Positions 3,023 to 56,595 are shown, numbered from the stretch's first letter. The stretch: DNA of 64,000 nt from an uncultured Bacteroidales bacterium (GCA_964404735.1 CAYOLA010000031.1:1958-65957); one strand, 5' to 3'. The notes: generated from the letters alone by a model not told the origin. Numbers and translations are program-made.

Positions 3023-3073
3023 CAATCAGCATCATCCCCCTGTAACAAACAACCGTCTTTTTATCAATACAAT

Positions 3074-3334
3074 ATGACAGACCAGCAAAATACCGGACCC
3101 GGAACAGAACAGGAACAGCCAAAAAAAAGGAAGTTCAACTTTTTACCCCTGGCAGGCGCCATCCTCGGAGCCATCGGAGGATATATCTACTATATTGAAG
3201 TTGGCTGCAAATCGGGTAGTTGCGCCATCACCTCAAGCCCCTACCTGAGCATGATCTGGGGAGCCGCCATTGGTTACCTGCTATTTGGCCTCATCAGAAA
3301 AAAACCTGCCCGGCAACGCAAAACCAATCAATAA
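3074..3334 (+). CDS. Small membrane protein of unknown function (two predicted TM helices)
   Basis: 86-aa ORF with a polar N-terminus, then hydrophobic stretches LPLAGAILGAIGGYIYYI and MIWGAAIGYLLFGLI around a CKSGSC pair. It ends 17 nt before the next gene. No family recognised. Confidence 0.5.
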   Translation: MTDQQNTGPGTEQEQPKKRKFNFLPLAGAILGAIGGYIYYIEVGCKSGSCAITSSPYLSMIWGAAIGYLLFGLIRKKPARQRKTNQ

Positions 3335-3351
3335 TAGCATACTTTAGCATC

Positions 3352-3897
3352 ATGAACACTGAAACCGAAAAGCAAATCAGGGAACTAAGGGAAAAAATAG
3401 AAAGCCTGGAAAAAGGGACAAAAGACCAGTTAACCATGGTTGTTTTTTCCGGAGATCTCGATAAGTTACTGGCAGCAATGATCATAGCTACCGGAGCCAC
3501 TGCCATGGATACCAAAGTCAAGCTTTTTTTCACCTTTTGGGCAATTGCGGCCCTGCGGGATATCAAAAAGAAAAAGAAAGGAAAAAGCTTCATATCGAAA
3601 ATGTTTGGTATGATGTTGCCGAAGGGAAGCTCAAAGCTGAAACTTTCGAAAATGAACATGGGCGGCCTTGGCACTTCCATGATGAAATCCCTGATGAAGA
3701 AAAAAAATGTAGCCTCGCTCGAGGAGCTTTTTGAAGCAGCCGGTGAACTGGGTGTTGAGATCAGGATATGTGAGATGAGCATGAACCTGATGGGCTTTGG
3801 CGTTGACGAGCTGATCGATTACCCCCATATGGAAGTATGCGGCGTGGGGACCTTTCTGGCCGATGCCGGTGAGAGCAAGGTGCAATTGTTCATTTGA
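3352..3897 (+). CDS. DsrE/DsrF-like sulfur-relay family protein
   Basis: 181 aa from ATG 3352; the 3220 start in the track would overlap the previous gene. MVVFSGDLDKLLAAMIIATGA and the C-terminal ICEMSMNLMG cysteine motif resemble DsrE/DsrF-like (COG2210-type) proteins. Confidence 0.65.
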   Translation: MNTETEKQIRELREKIESLEKGTKDQLTMVVFSGDLDKLLAAMIIATGATAMDTKVKLFFTFWAIAALRDIKKKKKGKSFISKMFGMMLPKGSSKLKLSKMNMGGLGTSMMKSLMKKKNVASLEELFEAAGELGVEIRICEMSMNLMGFGVDELIDYPHMEVCGVGTFLADAGESKVQLFI

Positions 3898-3974
3898 TGA
3901 TCCCCGTCCGGGGAATTCCGGCTATGGCCATCCGAATTGGTTTCCCGGCATATGCTTCCTGGCCCTGACAGCTG

Positions 3975-4340
3975 TCATTTGCCGGAGGCGATTTCTTCCA
4001 GGACTTTACGCTCCTTTGCCGGTAGCCCTTTCACCACCAGCCCGTATGAATGGTCAATCCATTCCCTGATCAGGGTATCGGACACGCTCCCATCAATCAT
4101 CACCAGGTTCCAGTGGCGTTTATTGAAATAGCGGGGTATACGCACCGCAGGATATTCTTCCCGGAGGCTTTCCGCCTTCTCTGGATCGCACTTGAGCGAT
4201 ACCGCAAACTCATCTTCCAGATCGGTTACCGCGAACATTTTTCCGCCAACCTTGAACACCAGTGTCGTCTGATCGAAAGGAAAGGACTCCGAGGCTCCTT
4301 TCTTCATCATGCAATAATCGCGAAGCGCTTCAATATTCAT
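3975..4340 (-). CDS. MmcQ/YjbR family DNA-binding protein
   Basis: MNIEALRDYCMMKKGASESFPFD...LVFKVGGKMFA...YFNKRHWNLV matches the MmcQ/YjbR family pattern. ATG at 4340 is preferred over 4361. Confidence 0.7.
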   Translation of the reverse strand: MNIEALRDYCMMKKGASESFPFDQTTLVFKVGGKMFAVTDLEDEFAVSLKCDPEKAESLREEYPAVRIPRYFNKRHWNLVMIDGSVSDTLIREWIDHSYGLVVKGLPAKERKVLEEIASGK

Positions 4341-43603: not shown

Positions 43604-44872
43604 ATGAAGACCTATTCCCTTGAAACCATTGTTTCAGTTGCCCGCGAGTTATCGGAATATTACGGGCAACGCTATCGCAACCTACCACAAAAAGGCTGGA
43701 AGCTTTCTGAACTCCCTCCCGTCGACCAGGCCATATTCTGGGAATATAACCGGGTAGAAAACAACCGCCTGTTGACAGGGCCCATGACTGACGGCATCAT
43801 CTTCAAAAGCGGCGGCACGACGGGCATGCCCAAATTCTCGGTTTACAGCCGGGAAGAGTGGGAAACCATGACGGGTACCTTTGGCTACCATCTCGCCGAA
43901 AGCGGGCTGAAAAAAGGCGACCGGATTGCCAACCTTTTCTATGCCGGGGAGTTGTACAGCAGTTTTCTCTTCCTCCACGACAGCCTGGGACGCTGCCCGG
44001 TCGACACCATGCTGTTTCCTATCTCCGGGGCCTCTCCACTCGAATTTATTGCCCGGGAGCTTCGTGATTTTCGTATTAATACATTGCTGGGAGTACCGAC
44101 GCAACTGATCAGCCTGGCCGAGTATGTCAGGTCAAAACACTTAAAGGGCCTGAAGGTCGAAAAAATATATTTTGGCGGTGAAAGCATGTACGAGGATCAG
44201 CGTGAGCTGATGCATGAAGTATTCCCAGGGGTGCAGATTTATTCGGTGGGCTATGCCAGCGTTGACGGCGGACTGCTGGGCTATATCGATCCCGGATGCG
44301 GGTTCAACGAACACCGCGTGTTCGACGGTTACAACATCATAGAGATCATTGACGAGGACAGCGGTGATGTAATTGAAGAATGCAACAGGGAAGGACGCAT
44401 ACTCACCACCAACCTGTCGAGGCTGCTGATGCCCGTCATCAGGTACCCGGCAGGCGATCGCGGCATATGGGTGGAAGAAGCCGGAAAAGAAAACAGGAAA
44501 TTTAAAATAATGGGGCGATCGGAAGAGGGGGCCCGGATCGGGGTGGTTACCATGTATGTTGACAATTTCATGCACATCCTCCACCTCATGAAACCCTTAT
44601 TCCAGGCAGCCAACTTCCAGATGGTGATCGACCACATCGGGAAGCTCGACAAGCTTAGCCTGCGCATCGCCGTTGACGACCCTGCGGCGGTGCAGCCCGC
44701 ATGGGAAGAAGAGCTGCTCGACACCATCTTCAGCGAGCGGCCCGAATTCAGAGAAGAGATCGCCATCAAAGGCGTCCACCCCATCAGCATTGAATGGATT
44801 CGTCCGGAAGAGCTTGCTGTAAACCCGCGCACAGGCAAGATACGCCGCATTATCGACAACCGATTCAAATAA
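43604..44872 (+). CDS. PaaK-like adenylate-forming enzyme (phenylacetate-CoA ligase / F390 synthetase family)
   Basis: 422 aa with P-loop FKSGGTTGMPKFSVYS, TLLGVPTQL, KIYFGGESM, GYASVDGG, RYPAGDRGIWVEE and the terminal TGKIRRIIDNR (candidate A10 lysine). Confidence 0.75.
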   Translation: MKTYSLETIVSVARELSEYYGQRYRNLPQKGWKLSELPPVDQAIFWEYNRVENNRLLTGPMTDGIIFKSGGTTGMPKFSVYSREEWETMTGTFGYHLAESGLKKGDRIANLFYAGELYSSFLFLHDSLGRCPVDTMLFPISGASPLEFIARELRDFRINTLLGVPTQLISLAEYVRSKHLKGLKVEKIYFGGESMYEDQRELMHEVFPGVQIYSVGYASVDGGLLGYIDPGCGFNEHRVFDGYNIIEIIDEDSGDVIEECNREGRILTTNLSRLLMPVIRYPAGDRGIWVEEAGKENRKFKIMGRSEEGARIGVVTMYVDNFMHILHLMKPLFQAANFQMVIDHIGKLDKLSLRIAVDDPAAVQPAWEEELLDTIFSERPEFREEIAIKGVHPISIEWIRPEELAVNPRTGKIRRIIDNRFK

Positions 44873-44880
44873 ACCAACAT

Positions 44881-46056
44881 ATGTCAAAGTTTGAACAGCT
44901 ACAGGTTCCCGACCCGACTGCCCTGCAGGCCGTCCGGGAAATTTGCGAAATTGATGAGCCCTTCCGCACAGATGCTGACACGGACGAATTATTCCTGCAG
45001 GCCATGCGCGAGATCATGCAATGGCATTACGAACGATGCCCTTTTTACAGGAACTTCCTCGACAGGGAACAATTCAGCCCCGCCAAACTGAAGGGTATTC
45101 GTGACCTGCCGGCCATCCCTTTCATTCATGCCAACTTTTTCAAGACACATTCGGTAAAATCCGTCCGGGAAGAAGACATAGAGATCACCCTCACTTCCAG
45201 CGGCACCATGGGCCAGAAGAGCCGGATGTTCTTCGACCACTGGTCCATCGCCTCCGGCAGGCGGATGGTCGACTTTGTATACGACTACTTCGGATGGGTT
45301 AATCCCGAAAAAGAAACCAATTACCTGGTGAGCAATTATGAGCCCGAGGCAGGTTCAACGCGGGGCACAACCAACACCAGCCGCTTTCTGACCAAATACG
45401 CCCCGGCCAGGCATATCAATTATGTACTTCGGCTGACCGGGGAAGGTACGCATGAGTTCGACCTTTTCGGCAGCATAGCGGTGCTGAAACAATATGAAGC
45501 CGAAGCGATCCCGGTCAGACTGATCGGCTTCCCCTCATTCATCTTTTTTATCCTGGAAAGGATGAAGAACCTGGGCGTGAAGGACCTTCGTCTGCCCGAA
45601 GATTCCCTGGTCTTCTTTGCCGGCGGGTGGAAGGGCTATGCCGACCGGCAACTCTCCAAACCTGAGCTATACGGACGCCTGGGTGAGCAACTTGGCATCC
45701 CCGACTTCCGCTGCCGCGACGGCTTTGGCTCGGTCGAACACTCGGTGCCTTACATAGAATGTGAACGGCATCATATGCACGTCCCGGTCTGGTCCAGGGC
45801 ATTCATCCGTGATGTAAGAACCCTTGAAGTGCTGGGTTACGAAAAGCCCGGCTATCTCAGTTTTGTAACGCCCTACATCACCTCCGTGCCTGCCATCAGC
45901 GTTGTGATGGGCGACCTGGCCGTGATGCACCCGCCCGAAGCATGTGGATGCGGCATCAACACGCCCTGGTTTGACATTGCCGGCAGGGCCGGATTATCCA
46001 AAAACAAGAGCTGTGCCGTTTCGGCTGCCGAACTGCTCAAAAAAGAAGCCGTATAA
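44881..46056 (+). CDS. LuxE-family acyl-protein synthetase-like adenylating enzyme
   Basis: 391 aa from ATG 44881; the 44794 start overlaps the previous gene. N-terminal ...CPFYRNFL..., LPAIPFIHANFFK, TSSGTMGQKSRMF and FFAGGWKGY fit my recollection of the LuxE family pattern. Confidence 0.65.
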   Translation: MSKFEQLQVPDPTALQAVREICEIDEPFRTDADTDELFLQAMREIMQWHYERCPFYRNFLDREQFSPAKLKGIRDLPAIPFIHANFFKTHSVKSVREEDIEITLTSSGTMGQKSRMFFDHWSIASGRRMVDFVYDYFGWVNPEKETNYLVSNYEPEAGSTRGTTNTSRFLTKYAPARHINYVLRLTGEGTHEFDLFGSIAVLKQYEAEAIPVRLIGFPSFIFFILERMKNLGVKDLRLPEDSLVFFAGGWKGYADRQLSKPELYGRLGEQLGIPDFRCRDGFGSVEHSVPYIECERHHMHVPVWSRAFIRDVRTLEVLGYEKPGYLSFVTPYITSVPAISVVMGDLAVMHPPEACGCGINTPWFDIAGRAGLSKNKSCAVSAAELLKKEAV

Positions 46057-46066
46057 AATTATCATT

Positions 46067-48580
46067 ATGAAAAATAAGGAATATATCTGGAGAGGTGAAT
46101 GGATCAGCGAAGCTGAATTCGGAAAGAAAGCGGGCAACATTGGCCGCGACATGGCCCCCGACCTTCGGCTGCGCCTGGAACCGGCCACATTGTTCCGCGC
46201 CTGTGCCCGTTACAGGGACCTTTTGCTGGAAGGCGACTCACAGGAACTCATCGACTCCCTTGTGCAGGCCGGCAACACCCCTGAACATGCCCATCAGACC
46301 ATTGAAGAAATTGTTGCCTTTCTGGATCCGGGCTTTCTGGAAGAAAAAATGAAAAGGGAACTGGGGAGCGACAATCCCTTTATCCTTCACCGAAACAACT
46401 TCCGCAACGACACTTTTGAAGCCTGGGCACCCCTGGGCATGCTGGTACACGTAGTGCCGGGAAACGCCCCGACGGTGGCACCGCTCAGCGTGCTGGAAGG
46501 ACTCATGGCCGGAAACATCAACGTGCTTAAGAACAGCAGCAGAAACGGCAACTTCCCGCAGCTTATCCTGAAAGGCATCGTGGATGCCGATCCCTCCGGC
46601 ACCCTCAAGCCTTTCGTATATGCCTTCCGCCTGTCCTCTTCACGCCAAGACATCCTCAGTATCCTCTTCAATGAAGCCCACGGCATTGCCGCATGGGGCA
46701 GTGAAGAGTCGGTGGCCTCCGTGAGGCGGATGACCCCTGAGAACACCCGCATCATCGACTGGGGGCACCGCATCAGCTTCTCCTACGTGAGCAGGAAGAT
46801 GAAGGACGATGTTGTTACCCTTGAAAACATAGCCTACGACATTTGTGTGATCGAGCAGCAGGCCTGTTCCAGCCCGCAATGCCTTTACCTCGAAACCTCC
46901 GCCAGGGATGAACTGATGGCCTTTGCGCACAACTTTGCGGAAGTGCTCGACAGGGTCTCGCAGCGCTTTTCCCAGCCGAAACTGAGCATCGCTGAGATGG
47001 CCGAGATCACCAATGTGACCCAGGTCACCAGGCTGGGCGCTGCATTGGGCGAGTCGGAAGTAATTGAATCTGCCGGGAAGACCTGGCGGATACTGATCGA
47101 TTTTAAGCCGGGCCTGCGCCCATCACCGCTGTATCGAACGATCTGGGTGAAACCGCTTCCGAAAGACAAGATCGTAAGCACCCTCAGGCCCCTGAGAAAT
47201 TATCTGCAAACAGCAGGGCTGGCCTGTAAGCTGGAAGAGCTTGGAAGCATGAGCCGGGAGCTTTTACAGGCCGGCGTGACCCGCATCAAGCGGCCCGGCC
47301 ATCACCTCGACGGCTATGCCGGTGAGCCCCACGACGGGGTGTACGCCCTGCAACGTTATTGCCGGCGGATATGCCTGCAGCTTGGCAACCTCACTGACGG
47401 CATCACCAGCTTCGCCGACCTGGAAGAGCAAGCGGCACCCGTACTACCTGCCAACACCCCCGTCATCCATAAAGATGAATATATCAGGAAAAAAGTGCCG
47501 GAGAGGTTTTCAGAACTCTTTTTTAAGAGCGGGGGTACAAGCGGAAAGCCCAAGATGGCTGTTTATACCTACGAAGACTATCACAAACAGATGTTTGCCG
47601 CTTCCGAGGCCCTCTTCGCCGCCGGCCTCGATCCAACCACCGACCGCTGCATGAACCTATTCTTCAGCGGAGAACTGTACGGGGGCTTCATCAGTTTCTG
47701 GACCATCCTCGAAGGCATGGGGGCCATACAGTTTCCCATGACAGCCGTCCCCGACTACGGACATGTGGCCCAAACCATCATCGACAACAAGGTGGACACC
47801 CTCCTGGGGATGCCATTCTACTTTTCACAGCTTTTCGAAGCCTGCAAAAAAGAGCTGAAGGAATATGGCGGCATTCGTAAGATCTTTTATGCCGGTGAGC
47901 ATATGAGCAAGGCCATGCAGCAATATTACAAGGATGAATTTGGGGTGGAAGTGGTCAAGTCGGCCATATACGGCAGCAACGACGCCGGGCCGCTCGGCTA
48001 TAGCTGCACCCGTTGCGAAGGCAGCATCCACCACGTGATGACCCGCACCCAGTTCCTGGAGATATTTAAAATGGAGGAAGACAAACCCGTTGACAAAGGA
48101 GAAACAGGCAGGCTTATCTTCACCAGCCTTTCAAGGAAAGGGCAGAACCTTTACCGCTATGAGATCGGCGACCTGGGACGCTGGGTTGAAGAGCCCTGCC
48201 CCTGCGGAAGAAAAGCCCCGCGCTTTGAGTTGCTTGGCCGTTTCGGCGACATCTTCAAGATGGGGCCGCTCTTTAACTATAACACCTTTGCCAGGACACT
48301 GGAAAACAGCTTTGGCTATAAAGATGAGCTGCAATTGCTGCTCGACACCGCCGGGGCAGGCAAACAAAAGATCAGCGTGCGGCTGAACCGGAATGCCGGA
48401 CTGGACACGAAAGAAGTATGCGAGGCTCTGCTGGAAGGCGATCCCGTGTTGTACGACATGGTCATGAACGACAACCTCATTGAGCTTGAAGCGAAACCGG
48501 TGGATGGCACCGCCTTCACCAAGATCGAAACCAGCGGCAAACTGCAAAAGATCATCGACAAACGCAAACAAACCTCATGA
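46067..48580 (+). CDS. Fusion protein: LuxC-type acyl-CoA/acyl-protein reductase (N-terminal ~440 aa) plus a second PaaK-like adenylating module (C-terminal ~390 aa)
   Basis: 837 aa from ATG 46067. The N-terminal half has HVVPGNAPTVAPLSVLEGLMAGNINVLKNSS and EQQACSSPQ (a candidate catalytic Cys in an ALDH-like fold), as in LuxC. The C-terminal half has FFKSGGTSGKPKMAVYT, TLLGMPFYF, KIFYAGEHM, RYEIGDLGRWVEE and SGKLQKIIDKR, colinear with 43604-44872. Confidence 0.7.
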   Translation: MKNKEYIWRGEWISEAEFGKKAGNIGRDMAPDLRLRLEPATLFRACARYRDLLLEGDSQELIDSLVQAGNTPEHAHQTIEEIVAFLDPGFLEEKMKRELGSDNPFILHRNNFRNDTFEAWAPLGMLVHVVPGNAPTVAPLSVLEGLMAGNINVLKNSSRNGNFPQLILKGIVDADPSGTLKPFVYAFRLSSSRQDILSILFNEAHGIAAWGSEESVASVRRMTPENTRIIDWGHRISFSYVSRKMKDDVVTLENIAYDICVIEQQACSSPQCLYLETSARDELMAFAHNFAEVLDRVSQRFSQPKLSIAEMAEITNVTQVTRLGAALGESEVIESAGKTWRILIDFKPGLRPSPLYRTIWVKPLPKDKIVSTLRPLRNYLQTAGLACKLEELGSMSRELLQAGVTRIKRPGHHLDGYAGEPHDGVYALQRYCRRICLQLGNLTDGITSFADLEEQAAPVLPANTPVIHKDEYIRKKVPERFSELFFKSGGTSGKPKMAVYTYEDYHKQMFAASEALFAAGLDPTTDRCMNLFFSGELYGGFISFWTILEGMGAIQFPMTAVPDYGHVAQTIIDNKVDTLLGMPFYFSQLFEACKKELKEYGGIRKIFYAGEHMSKAMQQYYKDEFGVEVVKSAIYGSNDAGPLGYSCTRCEGSIHHVMTRTQFLEIFKMEEDKPVDKGETGRLIFTSLSRKGQNLYRYEIGDLGRWVEEPCPCGRKAPRFELLGRFGDIFKMGPLFNYNTFARTLENSFGYKDELQLLLDTAGAGKQKISVRLNRNAGLDTKEVCEALLEGDPVLYDMVMNDNLIELEAKPVDGTAFTKIETSGKLQKIIDKRKQTS

Positions 48581-50064
48581 CCGGGTTCCATCATTCAAAG
48601 CTCAGCATACAGAACCGCATCGATTACCTGCCGGAAGCGGAAGCATTTGTTGAAAAAATATCGGAGATCAGCGGGTTCAGCAGGCACGACAACAAACAGG
48701 TGCAGCTGGCCCTGGAAGAGATCCTGACCAACATCATCAAATATTCTTTTTTACCCGGCCAAAAAGGAAATATCGATCTGGAATTTATCCAAATGCCGGC
48801 CGGGCTGCAAATCCATATCCGGGTGAAGGGTATCCCCTTCGACCCCGCACTCTTCCCGGTATACAGCAAAGAAGAGCTGGAAAAGAATTACAACGACCGC
48901 GGGCTGGGCACCTTCCTGGTCGGGCAGGTCATGGATGAATTGTCGTACGTGAACCATGGCCATGAGGGGATCGAGGTCATCCTTATGAAACATCTCCCGA
49001 CCCGTTCCATCGGGCAGATGATCGATGCCGGGGAAACGGAAGCCATGGAGCATGGCAAAGAGCAGGCAAAGAGCCAGACAGTGTTTACGACCGGGCCGAT
49101 GCAGGCGCACGAAGCGGTTGAAGTTTCGCGCCTTGCCTATTATTGTTACGGATACAGCTATCCCTACGAGAACATCTATTATCCCCAAAAGGTAGCGCAA
49201 CTGAACAGGTCGGGGCAGCTTGTATCCTGGCTTGCCAGAACCGGCAATGGGGAGATCATCGGCCATTCGGCACTGAACATGGCACATGGGAACAATGCAG
49301 AGATCGGCATAGCATTCAGCAACCCCTTATACCGCGGCATGGGCGTGATGAACAGCCTTTGGGAAGACCTAATCGGAAAAGCCGTGAATATGCGCATCTG
49401 CGGTTTTTATGCCATGACCGTAACCACCCATCCCTATTCCCAGAAAGCGGCGCACCATTTCGGCATGCACGACTGCGTGCTGCTGGTGTCGCGGGTGCCC
49501 ACACTGAAATTCAGGGATATCAGGGAAGATATACATCCCAGGGAAAACATCATGATCACCTACCGTTACCTCCATCCTCCTGCCCGGCTCATCCTGCATC
49601 CTCCGCCCAGGCATCGCAAAATGATCATGGACATCATTGGCAACACCGGGGTTAAAGCCGAATATCCCGTAACGAAACCGGAATTGTCCCGGCTGGAGAG
49701 AAAGCGGACCAGGCTGAGCATTCATCGCAACAGGGACTTCATCACAGCCACCATCCGGATCGATCATTATGGCGCGCACACGGCCGACAGGGTCAGGGAT
49801 GCACTGAAAAGCCTGTGTATAGGCAGGTATGAAACCATATACCTCTACCTGAACCTGAACGACCCCTTTACCGCACTTCTGTGTCCTGAATTTGAGACCC
49901 TGGGCTTCTTCTTTGCAGGCGTTTTCCCGGGCGATGAAAACAACACTTTCCTCGTTTTACAATACCTGAACAACCAGTTGATGGATTACGGACTAATGAA
50001 GCTTGATGAAGGATTTGGCAGCGTGCTTGCCCATTATGTAAAAAACTGCGACCCCGGTCAGTAA
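48577..50064 (+). CDS. Fusion protein: RsbW/SpoIIAB-type anti-sigma serine kinase domain plus GNAT acetyltransferase domain plus an unassigned C-terminal region
   Basis: 495 aa. The HATPase_c_2-like N-box is LALEEILTNIIKYSF and the G-box is DRGLGTFLVGQVMDELSY. The GNAT core is GEIIGHSALNMAHGNNAEIGIAFSNPLYRGMGVMNSLW. No motif was recognised in the last ~200 aa. 4-nt overlap with the upstream gene. Confidence 0.65.
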   Translation: MTGFHHSKLSIQNRIDYLPEAEAFVEKISEISGFSRHDNKQVQLALEEILTNIIKYSFLPGQKGNIDLEFIQMPAGLQIHIRVKGIPFDPALFPVYSKEELEKNYNDRGLGTFLVGQVMDELSYVNHGHEGIEVILMKHLPTRSIGQMIDAGETEAMEHGKEQAKSQTVFTTGPMQAHEAVEVSRLAYYCYGYSYPYENIYYPQKVAQLNRSGQLVSWLARTGNGEIIGHSALNMAHGNNAEIGIAFSNPLYRGMGVMNSLWEDLIGKAVNMRICGFYAMTVTTHPYSQKAAHHFGMHDCVLLVSRVPTLKFRDIREDIHPRENIMITYRYLHPPARLILHPPPRHRKMIMDIIGNTGVKAEYPVTKPELSRLERKRTRLSIHRNRDFITATIRIDHYGAHTADRVRDALKSLCIGRYETIYLYLNLNDPFTALLCPEFETLGFFFAGVFPGDENNTFLVLQYLNNQLMDYGLMKLDEGFGSVLAHYVKNCDPGQ

Positions 50065-50666
50065 TTCTCGGGGATATTCTTCATGATGTTGAAAATGAAT
50101 TCACGGGCACGGAAAAGCTGTGCCTTCACGGTGCCGAGCGGCAGATTCAACTCTTCAGCAATCTCTTCGTAGGAATATTCTTTATAATACCGCAGTTCGA
50201 CAAGGGTACGGTAATGGGGCTTCAGTTTTTCCACCACTTCACGCATCAGCCCGATCTTTTCCTTTTTTATGACCTTTTCCTCGGGATCGGGGCTGTCGGA
50301 GGCAACGATGTTGGCCAGATCCTGACCCTCATCACCTTCTGTGCCAAGGTTAACCGCAAACGACTGCTTTCTCTTTTTCCGCATATAATCGATGCAGTTG
50401 TTTGAAGCGATCTTGAACAGCCATGTGCTGAAAGCGTAATCGGGGGTGTATTGTTCAAGTTTCTTGAATGCCTTTCCGAATGCTTCAATGGTAAGATCAT
50501 CCGCATCGCTGGCATTATTGGTCATCTTCAGCAGCATGAAGTAAAGCGAATCGCGGTAATTGTTCATCAGGGCGGCGTAGGCTTTCTGGTCGCCACGGCT
50601 AATGGCTGCCATCACCAGCTGATAATCACGCAGGGCTTTATCGGTGAGATTTGGATTTACTTCCAT
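50058..50666 (-). CDS. RNA polymerase sigma-70 family (ECF-type) sigma factor
   Basis: 202 aa. Region 2 has DLTIEAFGKAFKKL...FSTWLFKIASNNCIDYMRKK and region 4 has YSYEEIAEELNLPLGTVKAQLFRAREF. The start overlaps the upstream GT2 stop by 10 nt. Confidence 0.85.
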   Translation of the reverse strand: MEVNPNLTDKALRDYQLVMAAISRGDQKAYAALMNNYRDSLYFMLLKMTNNASDADDLTIEAFGKAFKKLEQYTPDYAFSTWLFKIASNNCIDYMRKKRKQSFAVNLGTEGDEGQDLANIVASDSPDPEEKVIKKEKIGLMREVVEKLKPHYRTLVELRYYKEYSYEEIAEELNLPLGTVKAQLFRAREFIFNIMKNIPENY

Positions 50667-51820
50667 TTATCAGGTTTTCTGATCATATTTGCCAGGCCCA
50701 GCACCGGGTAAATGATAATCAGGAATATTTCCGCCATAGGCGAAAGTAATAATAATTCCTTTTCGTTCAGCCTGATCATACTTTTTTTCGTGATCAGCAG
50801 ATGGCTGAAAAAGCGGATGGCAAATATGCCGCCGCCGACAAGCAGATTATATCCAGACACCATCGTGGCTGCAAACAGGAGCATAAAGGCGAGGGTGCTT
50901 CCCGACCAGCCGCCCAGCAACCATTTATATTTTTTCCTGTAATGTTTCCAGGTAGTGAAATGCCTCCTTTTCTGCCGCATCCAGGCCCCGAATGAGGTTT
51001 TTGGCACGGAAACGGTATGGCTTTGATGGCTTACTTCAACGGCAACGTTATTCCGCGAGGCAGCCCGGTTAATAAACAGGTCATCATCGCCCGAAGAAAG
51101 TTTATAGTGTGATGAAAAGCCTTTGTTCCTGTAGAAAAGCGATTTCCGGTAAGCGATATTCCGCCCCACCCCCATATAAGTATGTCCCGCCAGGGAAAAC
51201 GACAGGTACTGTATGGCGACCCAGAGTGTTTCGAAGCGGATCAGATAGTTGAGCAGCGAAGGCCTTCGCTCGTATGCGCCATAGCCGAGAACGATCTCCT
51301 TGCCTTCGCGGAAACCCGATGTCATACTGCTGATCCAATGCGAAGAGGCAGGACGGCAATCGGCATCGGTCAGCAGCAGTATCTCATTGGCGGCAGACTT
51401 GATGCCAAGCGAAAGCGGGAATTTCTTGCCATGAAAAAAGTTCAGGTCCTGACTGAGATTCACCACTTTAAGATTACTGTGTTCGCGGGCCATGTCGTTG
51501 AGCAACTCCAGGGAGTCGTCCTGCGAATTGTCGTTTACCACTACAACCTCAAAATCCGGGTATTCCTGGCGGAGGATTAGCGGCAGGTTATTTTTCAGGT
51601 TATCGTATTCGTTACGGGCGCAGATCACGACGGAAACGGGGCCTGCACCGGGTTTTTCGTCCCGGGCCTTTAGAAAGGCGAGCCTCCTGAAAACCACCCA
51701 CAGGTAGCACATCTGGATCAAAAACGCCAGCAAATAAGCCGCCATAAGCACTTGCTCAAGCGGTTCGGAAGGAAAATAAGGAAGCTGCATCACAACCGGT
51801 CTTGCCGCTAAATTATCCAT
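50657..51820 (-). CDS. Membrane-anchored family 2 glycosyltransferase
   Basis: GT2 motifs VSVVICARNEYDNL, VVVVNDNSQDDS, LLTDADC and SGDDDLF, with N- and C-terminal TM helices. ATG 51820 is chosen because the longer track ORF (to 52105) runs antisense into tgt. Confidence 0.8.
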   Translation of the reverse strand: MDNLAARPVVMQLPYFPSEPLEQVLMAAYLLAFLIQMCYLWVVFRRLAFLKARDEKPGAGPVSVVICARNEYDNLKNNLPLILRQEYPDFEVVVVNDNSQDDSLELLNDMAREHSNLKVVNLSQDLNFFHGKKFPLSLGIKSAANEILLLTDADCRPASSHWISSMTSGFREGKEIVLGYGAYERRPSLLNYLIRFETLWVAIQYLSFSLAGHTYMGVGRNIAYRKSLFYRNKGFSSHYKLSSGDDDLFINRAASRNNVAVEVSHQSHTVSVPKTSFGAWMRQKRRHFTTWKHYRKKYKWLLGGWSGSTLAFMLLFAATMVSGYNLLVGGGIFAIRFFSHLLITKKSMIRLNEKELLLLSPMAEIFLIIIYPVLGLANMIRKPDKWK

Positions 51821-51837
51821 TCTTCGCGAATAAAAAT

Positions 51838-51845
51838 TATCTTTG
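51838..51845 (+). promoter_or_regulatory. Candidate -7 promoter box TATCTTTG upstream of tgt
   Basis: Exact TAnnTTTG match 20 nt upstream of ATG 51866. Confidence 0.35.
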
Positions 51846-51865
51846 AACGAATTTTTATAAACAAC

Positions 51866-52996
51866 ATGAAGTTTATAATTCAGGCCACCGACACCCACAG
51901 CCATGCCCGCGCCGGCATAATTGAAACCCCGCACGGAACGGTAGAAACACCGGTATTTATGCCCGTCGGCACCGCCGCCAACGTTAAGGCCGTTCACATG
52001 CGTGACCTCAGGGACGACAGCCGTGCCCGGATCGTACTGGGAAATACCTACCATCTTTACCTGCGGCCCGGAACAGAGGTGTTGCAGCAGGCAGGCGGCT
52101 TGCATGCCTTTACCGGCTGGGAAGGCCCCATGCTCACCGACAGCGGGGGTTACCAGGTGTATTCACTGACCGGGATCAGGAAGCTCAGGGAAGAAGGGGT
52201 TACTTTCCAGTCGCACATCGACGGCTCAAAACATACATTCACACCCGAAAGCGTGATCGATATCCAGCGCATCATAGGGGCCGACATCATCATGGCCTTC
52301 GACGAGTGTACGCCATATCCCTGCGATCACGACTACGCCAAAAAATCGATGGATATCACCCACCGCTGGCTGAAACGTTGTGCCGACAGCTTTGCCGGCA
52401 CCGAAGCCCGCTACGGCTACCCGCAATCATTATTCCCCATCGTTCAGGGCAGTGTATACCCCGAACTCAGGAAGACATCGGCCGGCATTATCAGCAGCTA
52501 CGAAGCCGACGGCAACGCCATCGGCGGTCTTTCGGTGGGCGAGCCCCATGAACTGATGTATGAAATGACCGGACTGGTATGTGAGATACTACCAACCGAC
52601 AAGCCGCGTTATCTGATGGGTGTGGGCACACCGGCCAATATCCTGGAAAGCATCGCGCTGGGGGTTGACATGTTCGACTGCGTAATGCCCACAAGGAACG
52701 GGAGGAACGGGATGCTGTTTACCGCCGAAGGAGTGATCAATATGCGCAACAATAAATGGAAAGACGACTTTTCGCCGCTGGATGAAGAAGGCACGTCCTT
52801 TGTCGACCAACAGTACACCAAAGCATACCTGCGGCATCTTTTCATTTCGGGGGAAGTACTGGGCGGGATGATCGCCAGCCTGCACAACCTTGCCTTTTAC
52901 AGCCGGCTGATGCGTGAAGCCAGGGAACAGATACAGGCAGGCACCTTCGGCGCATGGAAAAGCAGCATGGTAAAAAAATTAAATACAAAGCTTTAG
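51866..52996 (+). CDS. tgt: Queuine tRNA-ribosyltransferase (tRNA-guanine transglycosylase)
   Basis: ARAGIIETPHGTVETPVFMPVGT, LTDSGGYQV, GLSVGEP, MGVGTP and FDCVMPTRNGRNG. Confidence 0.93.
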   Translation: MKFIIQATDTHSHARAGIIETPHGTVETPVFMPVGTAANVKAVHMRDLRDDSRARIVLGNTYHLYLRPGTEVLQQAGGLHAFTGWEGPMLTDSGGYQVYSLTGIRKLREEGVTFQSHIDGSKHTFTPESVIDIQRIIGADIIMAFDECTPYPCDHDYAKKSMDITHRWLKRCADSFAGTEARYGYPQSLFPIVQGSVYPELRKTSAGIISSYEADGNAIGGLSVGEPHELMYEMTGLVCEILPTDKPRYLMGVGTPANILESIALGVDMFDCVMPTRNGRNGMLFTAEGVINMRNNKWKDDFSPLDEEGTSFVDQQYTKAYLRHLFISGEVLGGMIASLHNLAFYSRLMREAREQIQAGTFGAWKSSMVKKLNTKL

Positions 52997-55083: not shown

Positions 55084-56595
55084 ATGGCACTCATCAATTC
55101 CCTCATATCATGGCTGATGAAAAAGCGCTATCACCAGATCGAGCTTTTTACCAAATATCCGCATGAGGTTCAGGCCGAATGGCTGAAGAAACTACTGAAT
55201 ACCGCCCGCGACACGGAATGGGGAAAACGCTACGAATTCAAAACCATCGATTCCTATGAGAAGTTCCGTAGCCGTATCCCCCTGATCGACTATGAATCGA
55301 TACACCCCGAGATTGAGCTGCTCATGAAGGGCCATCAGAATATCATGTGGCCGACCGACATCAGGCTTTTTGCCAAATCGGCCGGGACCACCAGCGAAAA
55401 AAGCAAGTTCATTCCGGTAAGCAATGAATCGATCGAAGAGTGCCACTTCAAAGGCGGAAAAGATATGCTGGCCATGTACTGCCATAATCACCCCGACACC
55501 CATCTCTTTGACGGGCGCGGGCTGGCCATGGGCGGCAGCCACATCATCCGGGAAGTCAACAATGAGGAATACCTCATCGGCGACCTTTCGGCGCTCATTA
55601 TCCGAAAACTTCCCCACTGGGCCGAATTCATCAGGGTTCCCAAGCGCAGCCTCGCCCTGCTCGACGAATGGGAGATCAAGATCGAAAAAATGGCCCATGC
55701 CACCATCCCCCACAACGTGACCAGTCTCTCGGGCGTTCCTTCCTGGACCCTGCTGCTGCTGAAACGCATCCTCGACATCACCGGCAAAAACAACATATTG
55801 GAAGTATGGCCCAACATAGAGGTATTCTTCCACGGTGGCGTGAATTTCGACCCCTACCGCAAGCAGTTCGAAGAGCTGCTGCCATCGCCCGACATCAATT
55901 ACAAGAATACCTACAATGCATCCGAAGGTTTCTTCGGGCTGCAGGAGGCCGACCAGGACGACCTGCTGCTGATGCTTGACTATGGCATTTATTACGAGTT
56001 TATACCCGTATCGGAACCCGACAGCGAACAGCCGACAGCCCTGCCCCTCCGGGAGGTTGAGACCGGTGTAAACTACGCCATGGTGATCACCACCAACGCC
56101 GGCCTCTGGCGTTATAAGATCGGCGATACGGTGATGTTTACCTGTACCGACCCTTACCGGATCAAGATCACCGGACGTACCAAAAGCTTTATCAATGCCT
56201 TCGGCGAGGAGCTGATCGTTGACAATGCCGAAAAAGCGCTGGATGTGGCCAACGGAAAATGCAATTCGGTGATCAGCGACTATACAGCCGCCCCGGTGTA
56301 TTTCGAGGGCCGGGAAAAGGCCGCCCACGAATGGCTGATCGAATTTGAAAAAGAACCGGAAAACCTCGACTTCTTCGCCGAGGCCCTGGATAACGCCCTT
56401 AAGTCGGTTAACTCCGACTATGAAGCCAAACGCTACCACGACATGGTGCTGCGTAAACCCATTGTACGAATCCTGCCTCCCCATACGTTCTATAACTGGA
56501 TGAAAAAACGCGGCCGCCTCGGCGGGCAGAATAAAGTGCCCCGGCTATCGAACGACAGGCGCTATGTTGACGACATCCTCGATATGATCAAATGA
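55084..56595 (+). CDS. GH3 (auxin-responsive promoter) family adenylate-forming protein
   Basis: 503 aa. The N-terminus ...HEVQAEWLKKLLNTARDTEWGKRY... and the blocks FAKSAGTTSEKSKFIPVS, YNASEGFFG and RYKIGD match bacterial GH3-family proteins. Confidence 0.8.
   Translation: MALINSLISWLMKKRYHQIELFTKYPHEVQAEWLKKLLNTARDTEWGKRYEFKTIDSYEKFRSRIPLIDYESIHPEIELLMKGHQNIMWPTDIRLFAKSAGTTSEKSKFIPVSNESIEECHFKGGKDMLAMYCHNHPDTHLFDGRGLAMGGSHIIREVNNEEYLIGDLSALIIRKLPHWAEFIRVPKRSLALLDEWEIKIEKMAHATIPHNVTSLSGVPSWTLLLLKRILDITGKNNILEVWPNIEVFFHGGVNFDPYRKQFEELLPSPDINYKNTYNASEGFFGLQEADQDDLLLMLDYGIYYEFIPVSEPDSEQPTALPLREVETGVNYAMVITTNAGLWRYKIGDTVMFTCTDPYRIKITGRTKSFINAFGEELIVDNAEKALDVANGKCNSVISDYTAAPVYFEGREKAAHEWLIEFEKEPENLDFFAEALDNALKSVNSDYEAKRYHDMVLRKPIVRILPPHTFYNWMKKRGRLGGQNKVPRLSNDRRYVDDILDMIK

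What the first reader, a model, noticed from the sequence alone, without database searches (positions are those of the whole stretch)
48577..50064. RsbW/SpoIIAB-type kinase domain fused to a GNAT, with no STAS or PP2C partner nearby
SEEN: in a single 495-aa ORF, residues ~30-140 look like an anti-sigma serine kinase (N-box and G-box present) and residues ~200-290 look like a GNAT. The last ~200 aa (ending ...ETLGFFFAGVFPGDENNTFLVLQYLN) carry no motif I recognise. The ORF is translationally coupled (4-nt overlap) to the LuxC::PaaK gene. I see no STAS-domain (anti-anti-sigma) or PP2C phosphatase gene anywhere in the 64 kb.

ESTABLISHED: RsbW-type kinases normally act in partner-switching modules with STAS proteins and group-3 sigma factors, not ECF sigmas.

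INFERENCE: the kinase domain may phosphorylate a cassette enzyme, or be controlled by acylation, rather than act as a classical anti-sigma.
Basis: partly seen in the sequence, partly recalled or inferred. Interest (0 to 1): 0.6.

Follow-up and report, generated by a model that had tools for sequence, protein, structure and literature searches.

The report
Partner-switch-type receiver fused to acyltransferase
This gene encodes an uncharacterised, widespread three-domain protein: a kinase-like docking domain that has lost a key ATP-binding residue, plus a pair of acyltransferase-type domains. In other bacteria it sits beside phosphatase/kinase/STAS signalling genes and beside the same acid-activating/reducing enzymes found here, so it is probably a signal-controlled acyltransferase and not a kinase or an anti-sigma factor.

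Summary
The ORF at 48577-50064 (495 aa) is real and has three folded parts. Residues 1-140 are an RsbW/SpoIIAB-like HATPase_c_2 domain. Residues 170-308 are a GNAT with an intact R-G-x-G CoA loop. Residues 309-495 are a second, degenerate GNAT-like domain.

It belongs to an uncharacterised family: about 1,280 clusters at 50% identity, at least 341 species genomes, at least 12 phyla, mostly anaerobes.

The "no STAS/PP2C partner" observation holds only locally.
- In 26 of about 72 other loci the gene lies inside a module of sensor PP2C, RsbW kinase and STAS.
- Searching from the LuxC::PaaK fusion, 37 of 63 metagenome loci carry the family gene and 23 carry partner-switch genes, often in one array.
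- In 301 Bacteroidales genomes, all 5 with LuxC::PaaK have the family gene within 3 kb.
- The window's own genome has exactly one PP2C-RsbW plus STAS module, on another contig, and no group-3 sigma was found.

In this clade the adenine-binding Asp of the kinase G1 box is Val (V83). The domain is nevertheless as conserved as the GNAT, so it looks like a docking pseudokinase.

Best reading: a STAS-gated acyltransferase that works with the PaaK/LuxE/LuxC::PaaK cassette. The acceptor is not established; my leading guess is the A10 lysines of the adenylating modules. This is a new variant of partner switching with an enzyme as output.

The parts
48577..50064 (+). Whole ORF, 495 aa plus stop (P0001): RsbW-like domain, linker, GNAT, GNAT-like domain
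   Evidence: Its start overlaps the LuxC::PaaK stop by 4 nt (ATGA).
48577..48996 (+). Residues 1-140: RsbW/SpoIIAB-like HATPase_c_2 domain, a probable docking pseudokinase
   Evidence: Pfam 56.9 bits. Foldseek hits 1til/6m36, E about 1e-7, TM to target 0.76-0.91. Mean pairwise identity within the clade is 69.8%, against 33% for the linker.
48823..48825 (+). Codon for Val83, at the position of the G1-box Asp (DxGxG) that binds adenine in GHKL kinases
   Evidence: Alignments to RsbW and SpoIIAB. Across the family this column is E in 50 and D in 40 sequences, but V in all 19 clade proteins and all 9 clade loci.
48997..49083 (+). Residues 141-169: flexible linker
   Evidence: pLDDT 55-71. 33% identity within the clade.
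49084..49500 (+). Residues 170-308: catalytic-type GNAT domain, with a Tyr-rich loop (AYYCYGYSYPYENIYYP) in the region that normally binds the acceptor
   Evidence: Pfam Acetyltransf_1. PDB profile hit 3d8p, E 1.3e-4. Invariant or near-invariant Y188, Y191, Y193, Y195, Y201, S217, H230, R253, G254, G256, H285, Q289.
49333..49344 (+). R253-G254-M255-G256: CoA-pyrophosphate loop (GNAT motif A variant)
   Evidence: Invariant R, G, G in alignment A2. R253 is kept in all 35 cassette-linked metagenome members.
49501..50061 (+). Residues 309-495: second, degenerate GNAT-like domain (..ETIYLYLNLNDP..EFETLGFFFAGVFPG..LQYLNN..) with no CoA loop
   Evidence: AF2 on this part alone gives pLDDT 89.6, pTM 0.86. 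Nearly all of the top-50 Foldseek PDB hits are GNAT proteins (the exception is antizyme, 4zgz), but weak: E >= 1.3e-3, TM 0.3-0.46. No Pfam family.
43604..44872 (+). PaaK-like adenylating enzyme, 422 aa, ending ..NPRTGK(412)IRRIIDNRFK (ANL A10 lysine motif)
44881..46056 (+). LuxE-like acyl-protein synthetase. The likely start is 44881 (391 aa, as in homologs); the longest ORF starts at 44794.
46067..48580 (+). LuxC reductase (catalytic ..EQQACSSPQ..) fused to a PaaK-like module, 837 aa. The longest ORF starts at 45944. It ends ..ETSGK(825)LQKIIDKR.
   Evidence: K825 is invariant in alignment A5.

Best explanation
The protein is a regulated acyl-CoA-dependent acyltransferase. It is neither a kinase nor an anti-sigma factor.

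Shown:
- The C-terminal two thirds is the conserved catalytic engine: a GNAT with an intact CoA loop plus a degenerate GNAT-like domain.
- The N-terminal domain is derived from the RsbW kinase of partner-switching modules.
- The family recurs next to sensor PP2C, RsbW and STAS genes, and next to LuxE / LuxC::PaaK / PaaK (plus or minus an EntS-like MFS exporter). Often all of these lie in one array.

Inferred:
- The N-domain is the docking site through which an unphosphorylated STAS protein switches the acyltransferase on or off.
- In this clade it has lost the adenine-binding Asp (V83) yet stays under strong selection, so it binds but does not phosphorylate.
- In this genome the input would come in trans from the single dCache-HAMP-PP2C-RsbW plus STAS module on contig C76.

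Acceptor (my commitment, about 35%): the catalytic A10 lysines of the cassette's adenylating modules (K412 of the PaaK-like protein, K825 of LuxC::PaaK). Acylating them would shut down ATP-consuming acid activation, as Pat and AcuA do to acetyl-CoA synthetase. The next best option (about 25%) is a small-molecule amine.
For: Domains:
-.

Kinase motif loss combined with conservation:
- V83 in 19 of 19 clade proteins and 9 of 9 clade loci.
- N-domain identity within the clade is 69.8%, against 72.7% for the GNAT and 33.4% for the linker.
- Among 35 cassette-linked members, N52 is replaced in 12, residue 83 in 8, and the G2 box is degenerate in about 12. R253, H285, Q289 and R322 are always kept.

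Link to partner switching:
- 26 of about 72 non-clade loci, from at least 8 phyla, have STAS, PP2C or a small RsbW beside the gene. The typical order is NMT1, dCache-HAMP-PP2C, RsbW, family gene, STAS.
- 19 of 21 family-positive Bacteroidales genomes have the sensor PP2C, against 62 of 280 negatives.
- The best non-genus homologs of the own C76 PP2C-RsbW lie directly next to family genes in G214, G238, G126, G246, G282 and G118.

Link to the cassette:
- 5 of 5 Bacteroidales genomes with LuxC::PaaK have the family gene 0-3 kb away, with family members of 22-100% identity.
- 37 of 63 fusion loci carry the family gene, against 0 of 17 plain-LuxC loci.

All three gene sets in one array:
- L101, L106, L113, L114, L139, L167.

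Own genome:
- One STAS, one PP2C, no second sigma factor with region 3.

Acceptor:
- The acceptor-side Tyr loop is kept even at 22% identity. This argues for one common acceptor, although most family-bearing genomes lack the cassette.
- Both PaaK modules end in a P/S-x-x-G-K-[IL]-x-[KR]-I-I-D motif like the acetylation site of Acs (the comparison with Acs is from my own knowledge).
Against: - No binding or activity data exist; everything rests on gene neighbourhood and sequence.
- In this genus the partner-switch module is on another contig, so the trans link is only an inference.
- About two thirds of family loci show no partner-switch gene within the flanks fetched.
- Half of the family has Glu rather than Asp at the G1 position, so how much kinase activity the family ever had is unclear.
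- The GNAT shows no specific similarity to Pat or AcuA.
- Tight translational coupling, the EntS-like exporter and a PSD-like decarboxylase in related loci fit a biosynthetic step at least as well as a regulatory one.
- Other family members sit next to membrane enzymes (GT87-like, MBOAT, SpoIIM), which points to other acceptors.
Confidence: 0.55

Rival explanations
1. The GNAT pair is a biosynthetic N-acyltransferase that tailors a small molecule made by the cassette: acid activation by PaaK/LuxE, reduction by LuxC, an amine supplied for example by a PSD-like decarboxylase, and export by an EntS-like MFS. The RsbW-like domain still serves as the regulatory input.
For: - Translational coupling inside the operon.
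- In the sample, the LuxC::PaaK fusion never occurs without the family gene.
- MFS_3/EntS-like exporters are present in 15 of 63 loci, and PSD-like genes in L102, L150 and L033.
- Tandem GNAT plus pseudo-GNAT enzymes such as MshD act on small molecules (own knowledge).
Against: - 16 of 21 family-positive Bacteroidales genomes lack the cassette.
- The acceptor-side loop is nevertheless nearly invariant across phyla.
- The window's own cassette has no exporter or decarboxylase.
Confidence: 0.25
2. One reading: the N-domain is an active Ser/Thr kinase that phosphorylates a cassette enzyme or a distant STAS protein.
For: The HATPase_c_2 fold, the N-box E48/N52 and the G2 box are present. The domain is under purifying selection.
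Against: - Val replaces the adenine-binding Asp in the whole clade.
- Related cassette-linked members also lose N52 and the G2 box, while a separate RsbW kinase is encoded beside them.
- Scores are far below the RsbW and SpoIIAB equivalog cut-offs (38 against 145 bits).
Confidence: 0.1
3. The RsbW-like domain is an anti-sigma factor for the convergent ECF sigma gene (50058-50666, minus strand), which has no obvious anti-sigma partner.
For: The ECF sigma plus GT2 pair lies tail-to-tail with this gene in the window and in most loci of the clade (L018, L019, L020, L022-L025).
Against: - The whole region is syntenic in this clade (urocanase, TGT, LptF/G), so the adjacency may simply be inherited.
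- L021 of the same clade keeps the cassette but has no adjacent ECF/GT2.
- None of the other cassette-linked loci (L100-L102, L051, L060) has an ECF sigma next to the gene.
- RsbW-type anti-sigmas act on group-3 sigmas, not on ECF sigmas (established knowledge).
Confidence: 0.05
4. In this genus the N-domain is only a structural or oligomerisation relic. The protein is a constitutive acyltransferase with no partner-switch input.
For: The partner-switch genes are unlinked here (C76 against C31). V83 shows loss of the ancestral function. The sister loci L088 and L095 also lack a partner-switch module within their flanks and have Ser at position 83.
Against: - The N-domain is as conserved as the catalytic domain, with clade-fixed substitutions Q12, H127 and I132.
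- The genome keeps one orphan PP2C-RsbW plus STAS module with no sigma output.
Confidence: 0.15

Closest known systems
SiaABCD of Pseudomonas aeruginosa (PP2C SiaA, kinase SiaB, phospho-target SiaC, diguanylate cyclase SiaD; PMC8457831, PMC7647112)
   Same: - A membrane sensor PP2C with a HAMP domain, an RsbW-like kinase and a small phosphorylatable partner protein control an enzyme rather than a sigma factor.
- NCBIfam's best name for the own C76 phosphatase is SiaA, though far below cut-off.
   Different: - The output here is a GNAT pair, not a GGDEF cyclase.
- The output enzyme carries its own RsbW-like domain as the presumed docking site.
- The partner is a canonical STAS protein.
- In this genome the module and the output are unlinked.
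RsbW/SpoIIAB anti-sigma serine kinases with RsbV/SpoIIAA (PDB 6m36, 1til, 1th8)
   Same: Same fold and HATPase_c_2 family. N-box and G2 box are present. Relatives are flanked by STAS and PP2C genes.
   Different: - The G1-box Asp is Val.
- The domain is fused to 350 aa of acyltransferase.
- There is no group-3 sigma in the genome.
- Scores are far below the equivalog cut-offs.
Regulatory-domain-GNAT protein acetyltransferases that silence AMP-forming acyl-CoA synthetases (Pat/PatZ, AcuA, cAMP-dependent MtPat; own knowledge)
   Same: A GNAT fused to a signal-receiving domain. It is encoded beside ANL adenylating enzymes whose C-terminal ..GK.. lysine motif is present.
   Different: - No specific sequence similarity to Pat or AcuA.
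- The regulatory domain is RsbW-like, not a cNMP-binding, ACT or NDP-forming-synthetase-like domain.
- There is an extra GNAT-like domain.
- The substrate is not shown.
LuxCDE fatty-acid reductase complex (PMC9157457)
   Same: The neighbours are LuxE-type synthetase and LuxC-type reductase, with the catalytic Cys motif. An acyltransferase subunit accompanies them.
   Different: - The transferase is a GNAT pair, not the alpha/beta-hydrolase LuxD.
- LuxC is fused to a PaaK-like module.
- All scores are far below the LuxC and LuxE equivalog cut-offs.
- There is a link to partner switching.
HenR / All4160 partner-switching-like control of a polysaccharide enzyme in Anabaena (bioRxiv 10.64898/2026.04.08.717354)
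   Same: A STAS phosphorylation switch that acts directly on a biosynthetic enzyme instead of on transcription.
   Different: The enzyme class and the domain logic differ. There, the STAS-domain protein All4160 is itself the regulated component required for polysaccharide synthesis; here an RsbW-like domain is part of the enzyme.

Membership tests
RsbW/SpoIIAB-type anti-sigma serine kinase | HATPase_c_2 (GHKL) fold | tested here: met
   Pfam 56.9 bits against cut-off 27.4. Foldseek 1til/6m36, E about 1e-7.
RsbW/SpoIIAB-type anti-sigma serine kinase | Complete ATP site: N-box Glu/Asn, G1-box Asp, G2-box Gly-x-Gly | tested here: not met
   E48, N52 and G109-L-G111 are present, but the G1 Asp is V83, as in the whole clade.
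RsbW/SpoIIAB-type anti-sigma serine kinase | Reaches the curated RsbW or SpoIIAB equivalog score | tested here: not met
   38.1 bits against 145 (RsbW) and 18.2 against 135 (SpoIIAB).
RsbW/SpoIIAB-type anti-sigma serine kinase | Cognate STAS antagonist and group-3 sigma factor encoded with it | tested here: not met
   None in the window. The genome has one STAS on C76 and only one sigma with region 3.
RsbW/SpoIIAB-type anti-sigma serine kinase | Ser kinase activity on STAS, and sigma binding | not testable with these tools
   Needs biochemistry.
GNAT acyl-CoA N-acyltransferase | GNAT fold and family profile over cut-off | tested here: met
   Acetyltransf_1 29.1 bits against 20.7. Foldseek RimI, 2jlm and others. 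PDB profile 3d8p, E 1.3e-4.
GNAT acyl-CoA N-acyltransferase | Motif A pyrophosphate loop R/Q-x-x-G-x-G/A | tested here: met
   R253-G254-M255-G256-V-M. R, G and G are invariant; the last G/A position is not kept.
GNAT acyl-CoA N-acyltransferase | Acyl transfer from acyl-CoA | not testable with these tools
   Needs an enzyme assay.
Pat/AcuA-type protein lysine acetyltransferases of ANL enzymes | Specific homology to Pat or AcuA GNAT domains | tested here: not met
   No such NCBIfam or PDB sequence hit. PatZ (9it0) appears only as a poor Foldseek alignment, rmsd 19.
Pat/AcuA-type protein lysine acetyltransferases of ANL enzymes | ANL substrates with an A10 ..G-K.. lysine motif available | tested here: met
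   PaaK-like ..NPRTGKIRRII.. and LuxC::PaaK ..ETSGKLQKII.. K825 is invariant in A5. Presence of the motif is not proof that these are substrates.
Partner-switching system with an enzyme output (SiaABCD-like) | PP2C, RsbW-type kinase and STAS genes encoded with the output enzyme | tested here: inconclusive
   Met for the family: 26 of about 72 loci, 23 of 63 cassette loci, and arrays such as L101, L113 and L167. Not met in this window; the module is on contig C76.
Partner-switching system with an enzyme output (SiaABCD-like) | STAS protein with the phosphorylatable Ser | tested here: met
   The own STAS reads ..LEYISSSGLRVLL.. and scores 77.9 bits on the anti-sigma-antagonist model, cut-off 53.45.
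Partner-switching system with an enzyme output (SiaABCD-like) | Phosphorylation-dependent binding of STAS to the output protein | not testable with these tools
   No complex prediction or binding assay was available.

The most novel reading that the evidence does not exclude
A widespread, undescribed signalling route in anaerobes. A periplasmic dCache sensor phosphatase dephosphorylates a STAS protein. That protein docks on the pseudo-RsbW domain of a tandem-GNAT enzyme. The enzyme then acylates the catalytic lysines of PaaK/LuxE/LuxC::PaaK adenylating modules and so switches a carboxylate-activation/reduction cassette. This would be the first direct link between partner switching and protein acylation.
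Probability: 0.25. Interest if true: 0.8.

Novelty: new variant of a known kind. Interest (0 to 1): 0.65.

Why it matters
Partner-switching modules are abundant outside Firmicutes, and most of them have no known output. Bacteroidota have no SigB/SigF-type sigma factor for them to control.

This family offers a concrete, testable output: an acyltransferase that carries its own RsbW-derived docking domain. It also ties that output to a conserved but unstudied gene set: LuxE, LuxC::PaaK, PaaK and an EntS-like exporter.

The family is large (about 1,280 clusters at 50% identity) and concentrated in syntrophic and fermentative anaerobes. For these organisms, control of ATP-costly acid activation should matter. 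All members are currently annotated only as "GNAT family N-acetyltransferase" or "ATP-binding protein".

Tried and rejected
- Second GNAT as a recent duplicate of the first: hhalign of the two domain alignments gave no signal. Only the fold search supports a GNAT-like fold, and weakly.
- PDB profile search of the C-domain: the only hit under 1e-3 was an eIF2-alpha chain (9h74, E 4.3e-5, 57 residues). I treat it as chance, and it remains unexplained.
- Whole-protein fold search for a solved two-domain GNAT relative (MshD or Eis type): none in the top 50.
- Anti-phage defence: no PADLOC hit for this protein, the cassette proteins or the Schlafen-type neighbour.
- Literature: full-text searches for partner switching with GNAT or acetyltransferase, for RsbW with acetyltransferase fusions, and for LuxC/LuxE/PaaK in Bacteroidetes found nothing on this family or gene set.
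- ECF sigma as the partner: rejected because the adjacency is clade-specific and broken in L021.
- Tool problems: the genome-contig scan with the 117-sequence alignment failed for lack of a conserved stretch and was redone with 16 sequences. One genome search failed on the server and was repeated.
- My ORF calling in fetched loci is crude (longest ORFs, HMMs built from the loci themselves). Counts of neighbours are therefore lower bounds, and short contigs hide neighbours.

Full report
**1. The observation**

The ORF at 48577-50064 (+) encodes 495 aa.
- Pfam places HATPase_c_2 at residues 12-137 (E 2.9e-15, 56.9 bits, cut-off 27.4) and Acetyltransf_1 at 206-295 (29.1 bits, cut-off 20.7). Nothing matches beyond residue 300.
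- NCBIfam's best names are RsbW and SpoIIAB, but far below their equivalog cut-offs (38 against 145 bits).
- The best solved relative by sequence is B. subtilis RsbW, 6m36.
- An AlphaFold2 model built on 117 homologs is confident (pLDDT 89.7, pTM 0.72). It shows three folded parts (1-140, 170-308, 320-495) and a floppy linker at 141-169.
- Foldseek matches SpoIIAB/RsbW structures and many single-domain GNATs.
- The ATG overlaps the stop of the upstream LuxC::PaaK gene (ATGA).
- The whole 2.87-Mb assembly (89% complete) has one STAS hit and one SpoIIE-family PP2C hit, both on contig C76. So none lies in the window.

**2. Corrections to the observation**

First, the kinase motifs are incomplete.
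- Alignments to RsbW and SpoIIAB put Val83 at the G1-box Asp (RsbW ..ADEGDSFD.. against ..RVKGIPFD..).
- The N-box (E48, N52) and the G2 box (G109-L-G111) are kept.
- Across 117 full-length homologs this column is E (50) or D (40). It is V in exactly the 19 proteins of this protein's own clade and in all 9 clade loci.

Second, the C-terminal 187 residues fold confidently on their own (pLDDT 89.6, pTM 0.86).
- Nearly all of the top 50 PDB neighbours are GNAT proteins (one is antizyme), but the matches are weak: best E 1.3e-3, TM 0.3-0.46, about 100 columns.
- This domain has no CoA loop.
- I read it as a degenerate second GNAT-like domain.

**3. The family**

- The search for homologous proteins returned 643 hits. 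Nearly all are 490-510 aa and collinear over the full length. They carry only generic names.
- A profile search of 1.84 billion cluster representatives gave 1,279 hits at E <= 1e-30.
- A scan of species-representative genomes found 341 genomes (80 loci kept). They come from Bacteroidota, Thermodesulfobacteriota (Desulfomonile, Syntrophorhabdus), Bacillota (Syntrophomonas, Selenomonadales), Cloacimonadota, Synergistota, Lentisphaerota, Planctomycetota, Verrucomicrobiota, Acidobacteriota, Nitrospirota and others. Nearly all are MAGs.
- Invariant or near-invariant residues lie mostly in the C-terminal two thirds: a Tyr-rich loop (Y188, Y191, Y193, Y195, Y201), S217, H230, R253-G254-x-G256, H285, Q289, R322, H346, E440, Q462, N465.

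**4. Context A: partner switching**

- A Bacteroidales homolog (36% identity) lies between a dCache-HAMP-SpoIIE(PP2C)-HATPase_c_2 protein and a STAS gene.
- I built HMMs from the loci themselves and confirmed representatives with Pfam. With these, 26 of about 72 loci outside the window's clade have STAS, PP2C and/or a 137-aa RsbW directly beside the gene.
- The typical order is NMT1-like binding protein, dCache-HAMP-PP2C, RsbW, family gene, STAS.
- On a maximum-likelihood tree this context is spread over many branches and phyla (at least 12 changes). 14 of 18 rows in the other Bacteroidota clade have it.
- A random gene would have a STAS neighbour well under 1% of the time (my estimate).

**5. 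Context B: the cassette**

- The window's clade (9 loci, SH-aLRT 100, long stem) always shows PaaK-like, LuxE, LuxC::PaaK, family gene. The whole region is syntenic there, so this alone proves little.
- Independent support comes from a sample of 301 Bacteroidales genomes. The family is in 21 and the LuxC::PaaK fusion in 5. All 5 are family-positive, with the two genes 0-3 kb apart and family members of 100, 88, 37, 36 and 22% identity. Fisher p is 1e-6, but relatives are not independent.
- Desulfobacteraceae (L051) and Synergistaceae (L060) loci show the same link.
- In the reverse test, a metagenome scan with a LuxC::PaaK alignment gave 63 fusion loci.
  - 37 carry the family gene, 23 carry partner-switch genes, 16 carry both, and 15 carry an EntS-like MFS_3 exporter.
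  - Of the 24 loci with ample flanks, 17 have the family gene and 19 have the family gene or partner-switch genes.
  - None of 17 loci with plain LuxC has the family gene.

**6. The three gene sets in one array**

- L101 (G086) reads, all on one strand: dCache-HAMP-PP2C-RsbW, STAS, LuxE, LuxC::PaaK, a 22%-identical full-length family member, MFS, an unknown ANL-like protein, PaaK-like.
- Metagenome loci repeat the theme in shuffled orders:
  - STAS-RsbW-LuxE-LuxC::PaaK-PaaK-FAM (L106)
  - ..PaaK-FAM-STAS-RsbW-PP2C (L113, L114)
  - MFS3-PaaK-LuxE-LuxC::PaaK-FAM-PP2C::RsbW-STAS (L167)
- Shuffled order with conserved content across distant lineages is the classic signature of a functional unit.

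**7. This genome**

- C76 carries a 783-aa dCache-HAMP-PP2C-RsbW fusion followed by a 109-aa STAS with the conserved serine (..YISSSGL..).
- This is the only PP2C and the only STAS found.
- Only one sigma factor with region 3 was found. The module therefore has no classical output.
- Besides the fusion itself, only this protein and a lone 158-aa RsbW on C86 carry an RsbW-like domain above cut-off.
- The closest full-length homologs of the C76 protein outside the genus (40-48% identity) sit directly next to family genes in six sampled genomes, and near the cassette in G182.
- 19 of 21 family-positive genomes have such a sensor PP2C, against 62 of 280 negatives.

**8. Is the N-domain a kinase?**

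- Within the clade it is as conserved as the GNAT: 69.8% against 72.7% mean pairwise identity, with the linker at 33.4%. It has clade-fixed substitutions (Q12, H127, I132). So it is functional and not decaying.
- Among 35 cassette-linked members from metagenomes, the Mg-ligand Asn52 is replaced in 12, residue 83 in 8 (V, H, F, S, Y), and the G2 box is degenerate in about 12. The GNAT core residues are always kept.
- A separate, intact RsbW is frequently encoded alongside.
- The N-domain is most similar to the RsbW domain of the module's own PP2C-RsbW fusions (32% identity).
- I conclude it is an RsbW-derived docking domain that often, and in this clade certainly, no longer binds ATP in the canonical way.

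**9. Mechanism**

Shown:
- the domain architecture;
- the loss of the G1 Asp combined with retained selection;
- the conserved three-way gene neighbourhood.

Inferred:
- Unphosphorylated STAS docks on the RsbW-like domain, as RsbV docks on RsbW, and toggles the acyltransferase.
- The sensor PP2C and the true RsbW kinase set the phosphorylation state of STAS.

The acceptor is open. I favour the A10 lysines of the adenylating modules, at about 35%.
- The acceptor-side loop is nearly invariant across phyla, although most family-bearing genomes lack the cassette.
- ANL enzymes are ubiquitous and are the classic GNAT targets (Pat, AcuA; own knowledge).
- Both PaaK modules end in ..GK[IL]x[KR]IID, and K825 is invariant.

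A biosynthetic N-acylation step is the main rival, at about 25%. The exporter and PSD-like genes in related loci support it.

**10. Comparison with known systems and novelty**

The logic is that of partner switching with an enzyme output. SiaABCD (PMC8457831, PMC7647112) and the Anabaena HenR/All4160 module are the precedents. It is combined with the theme of regulatory-domain-GNAT fusions.

It is not a member of the RsbW/SpoIIAB equivalogs, because it fails on both motif and score. It shows no specific Pat or AcuA homology.

No paper on this fusion or gene set was found, and there is no PADLOC hit.

I file it as a new variant of a known kind. The scan had already noted the four-gene cassette on this same stretch (e1-3342020). 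No look-alike was noted on other DNA.

Noticed in passing
P0153, P0191 (651-652 aa); L161:10295-12250; genes after the cassette in L102:13414-14637, L150, L173 and after the family gene in L088:1814-2956: Some family members carry a C-terminal Schlafen AlbA_2 domain, and Schlafen AlbA_2 genes recur right after the cassette. This is a third recurrent partner of unknown meaning.
   Followed up: partly
L102:9328-10677, L033:9842-11077, L150:1-960: A PSDC/phosphatidylserine-decarboxylase-like gene recurs both in cassette-linked and in partner-switch-linked loci of the family.
   Followed up: partly
L030:88-2993 and 3066-4208: Two tandem family paralogs (463 and 501 aa) followed by an MBOAT membrane O-acyltransferase in a Bacteroidota single-cell genome.
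   Followed up: no
L010:8539-11512: In Desulfomonile the family gene overlaps the end of a GT87/MptA_B-like membrane glycosyltransferase gene by 26 nt. Other Thermodesulfobacteriota loci have SpoIIM or M23-peptidase-like neighbours.
   Followed up: no
L098:3124-5475 (G000:C76) versus G123:C4:65919-68268: The PP2C sensor and the RsbW kinase are one 783-aa ORF in this genome. In the same-genus genome G123 they are two adjacent frames (647 and 143 aa) at 80-89% identity. This is either a recent fusion or split, or an assembly frameshift.
   Followed up: no
L100:7400-8922 (G071:C64): The family gene next to LuxE and LuxC::PaaK is split into two frames (residues 9-316 and 321-494). It may be a pseudogene or a sequencing frameshift.
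   Followed up: no
G243:C5:10537-10734: A third genome of the same genus has only an 85-aa frame matching residues 429-494 (62% identity) and no LuxC::PaaK hit. The cassette may have been lost there, or a contig break may hide it.
   Followed up: no
window 50058-50666 (-) and 50657-52105 (-): An ECF sigma gene overlaps the 3' end of this gene tail-to-tail by 7 nt and is preceded by a GT2 gene. The pairing is conserved in most clade loci, but L021 shows no ECF/GT2 next to the cassette, and the pairing is absent from all other cassette loci.
   Followed up: partly
window 55084-56595 (+): A GH3-family adenylating enzyme lies 5 kb downstream and is syntenic in the related contig L015. It is another ANL-type enzyme in the neighbourhood.
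   Followed up: no
residues 381-437 of P0001 (alignment A3 positions 73-129): The profile of the C-terminal domain hits one eIF2-alpha chain (9h74_A) at E 4.3e-5 over 57 residues. This is unexplained and probably chance.
   Followed up: no
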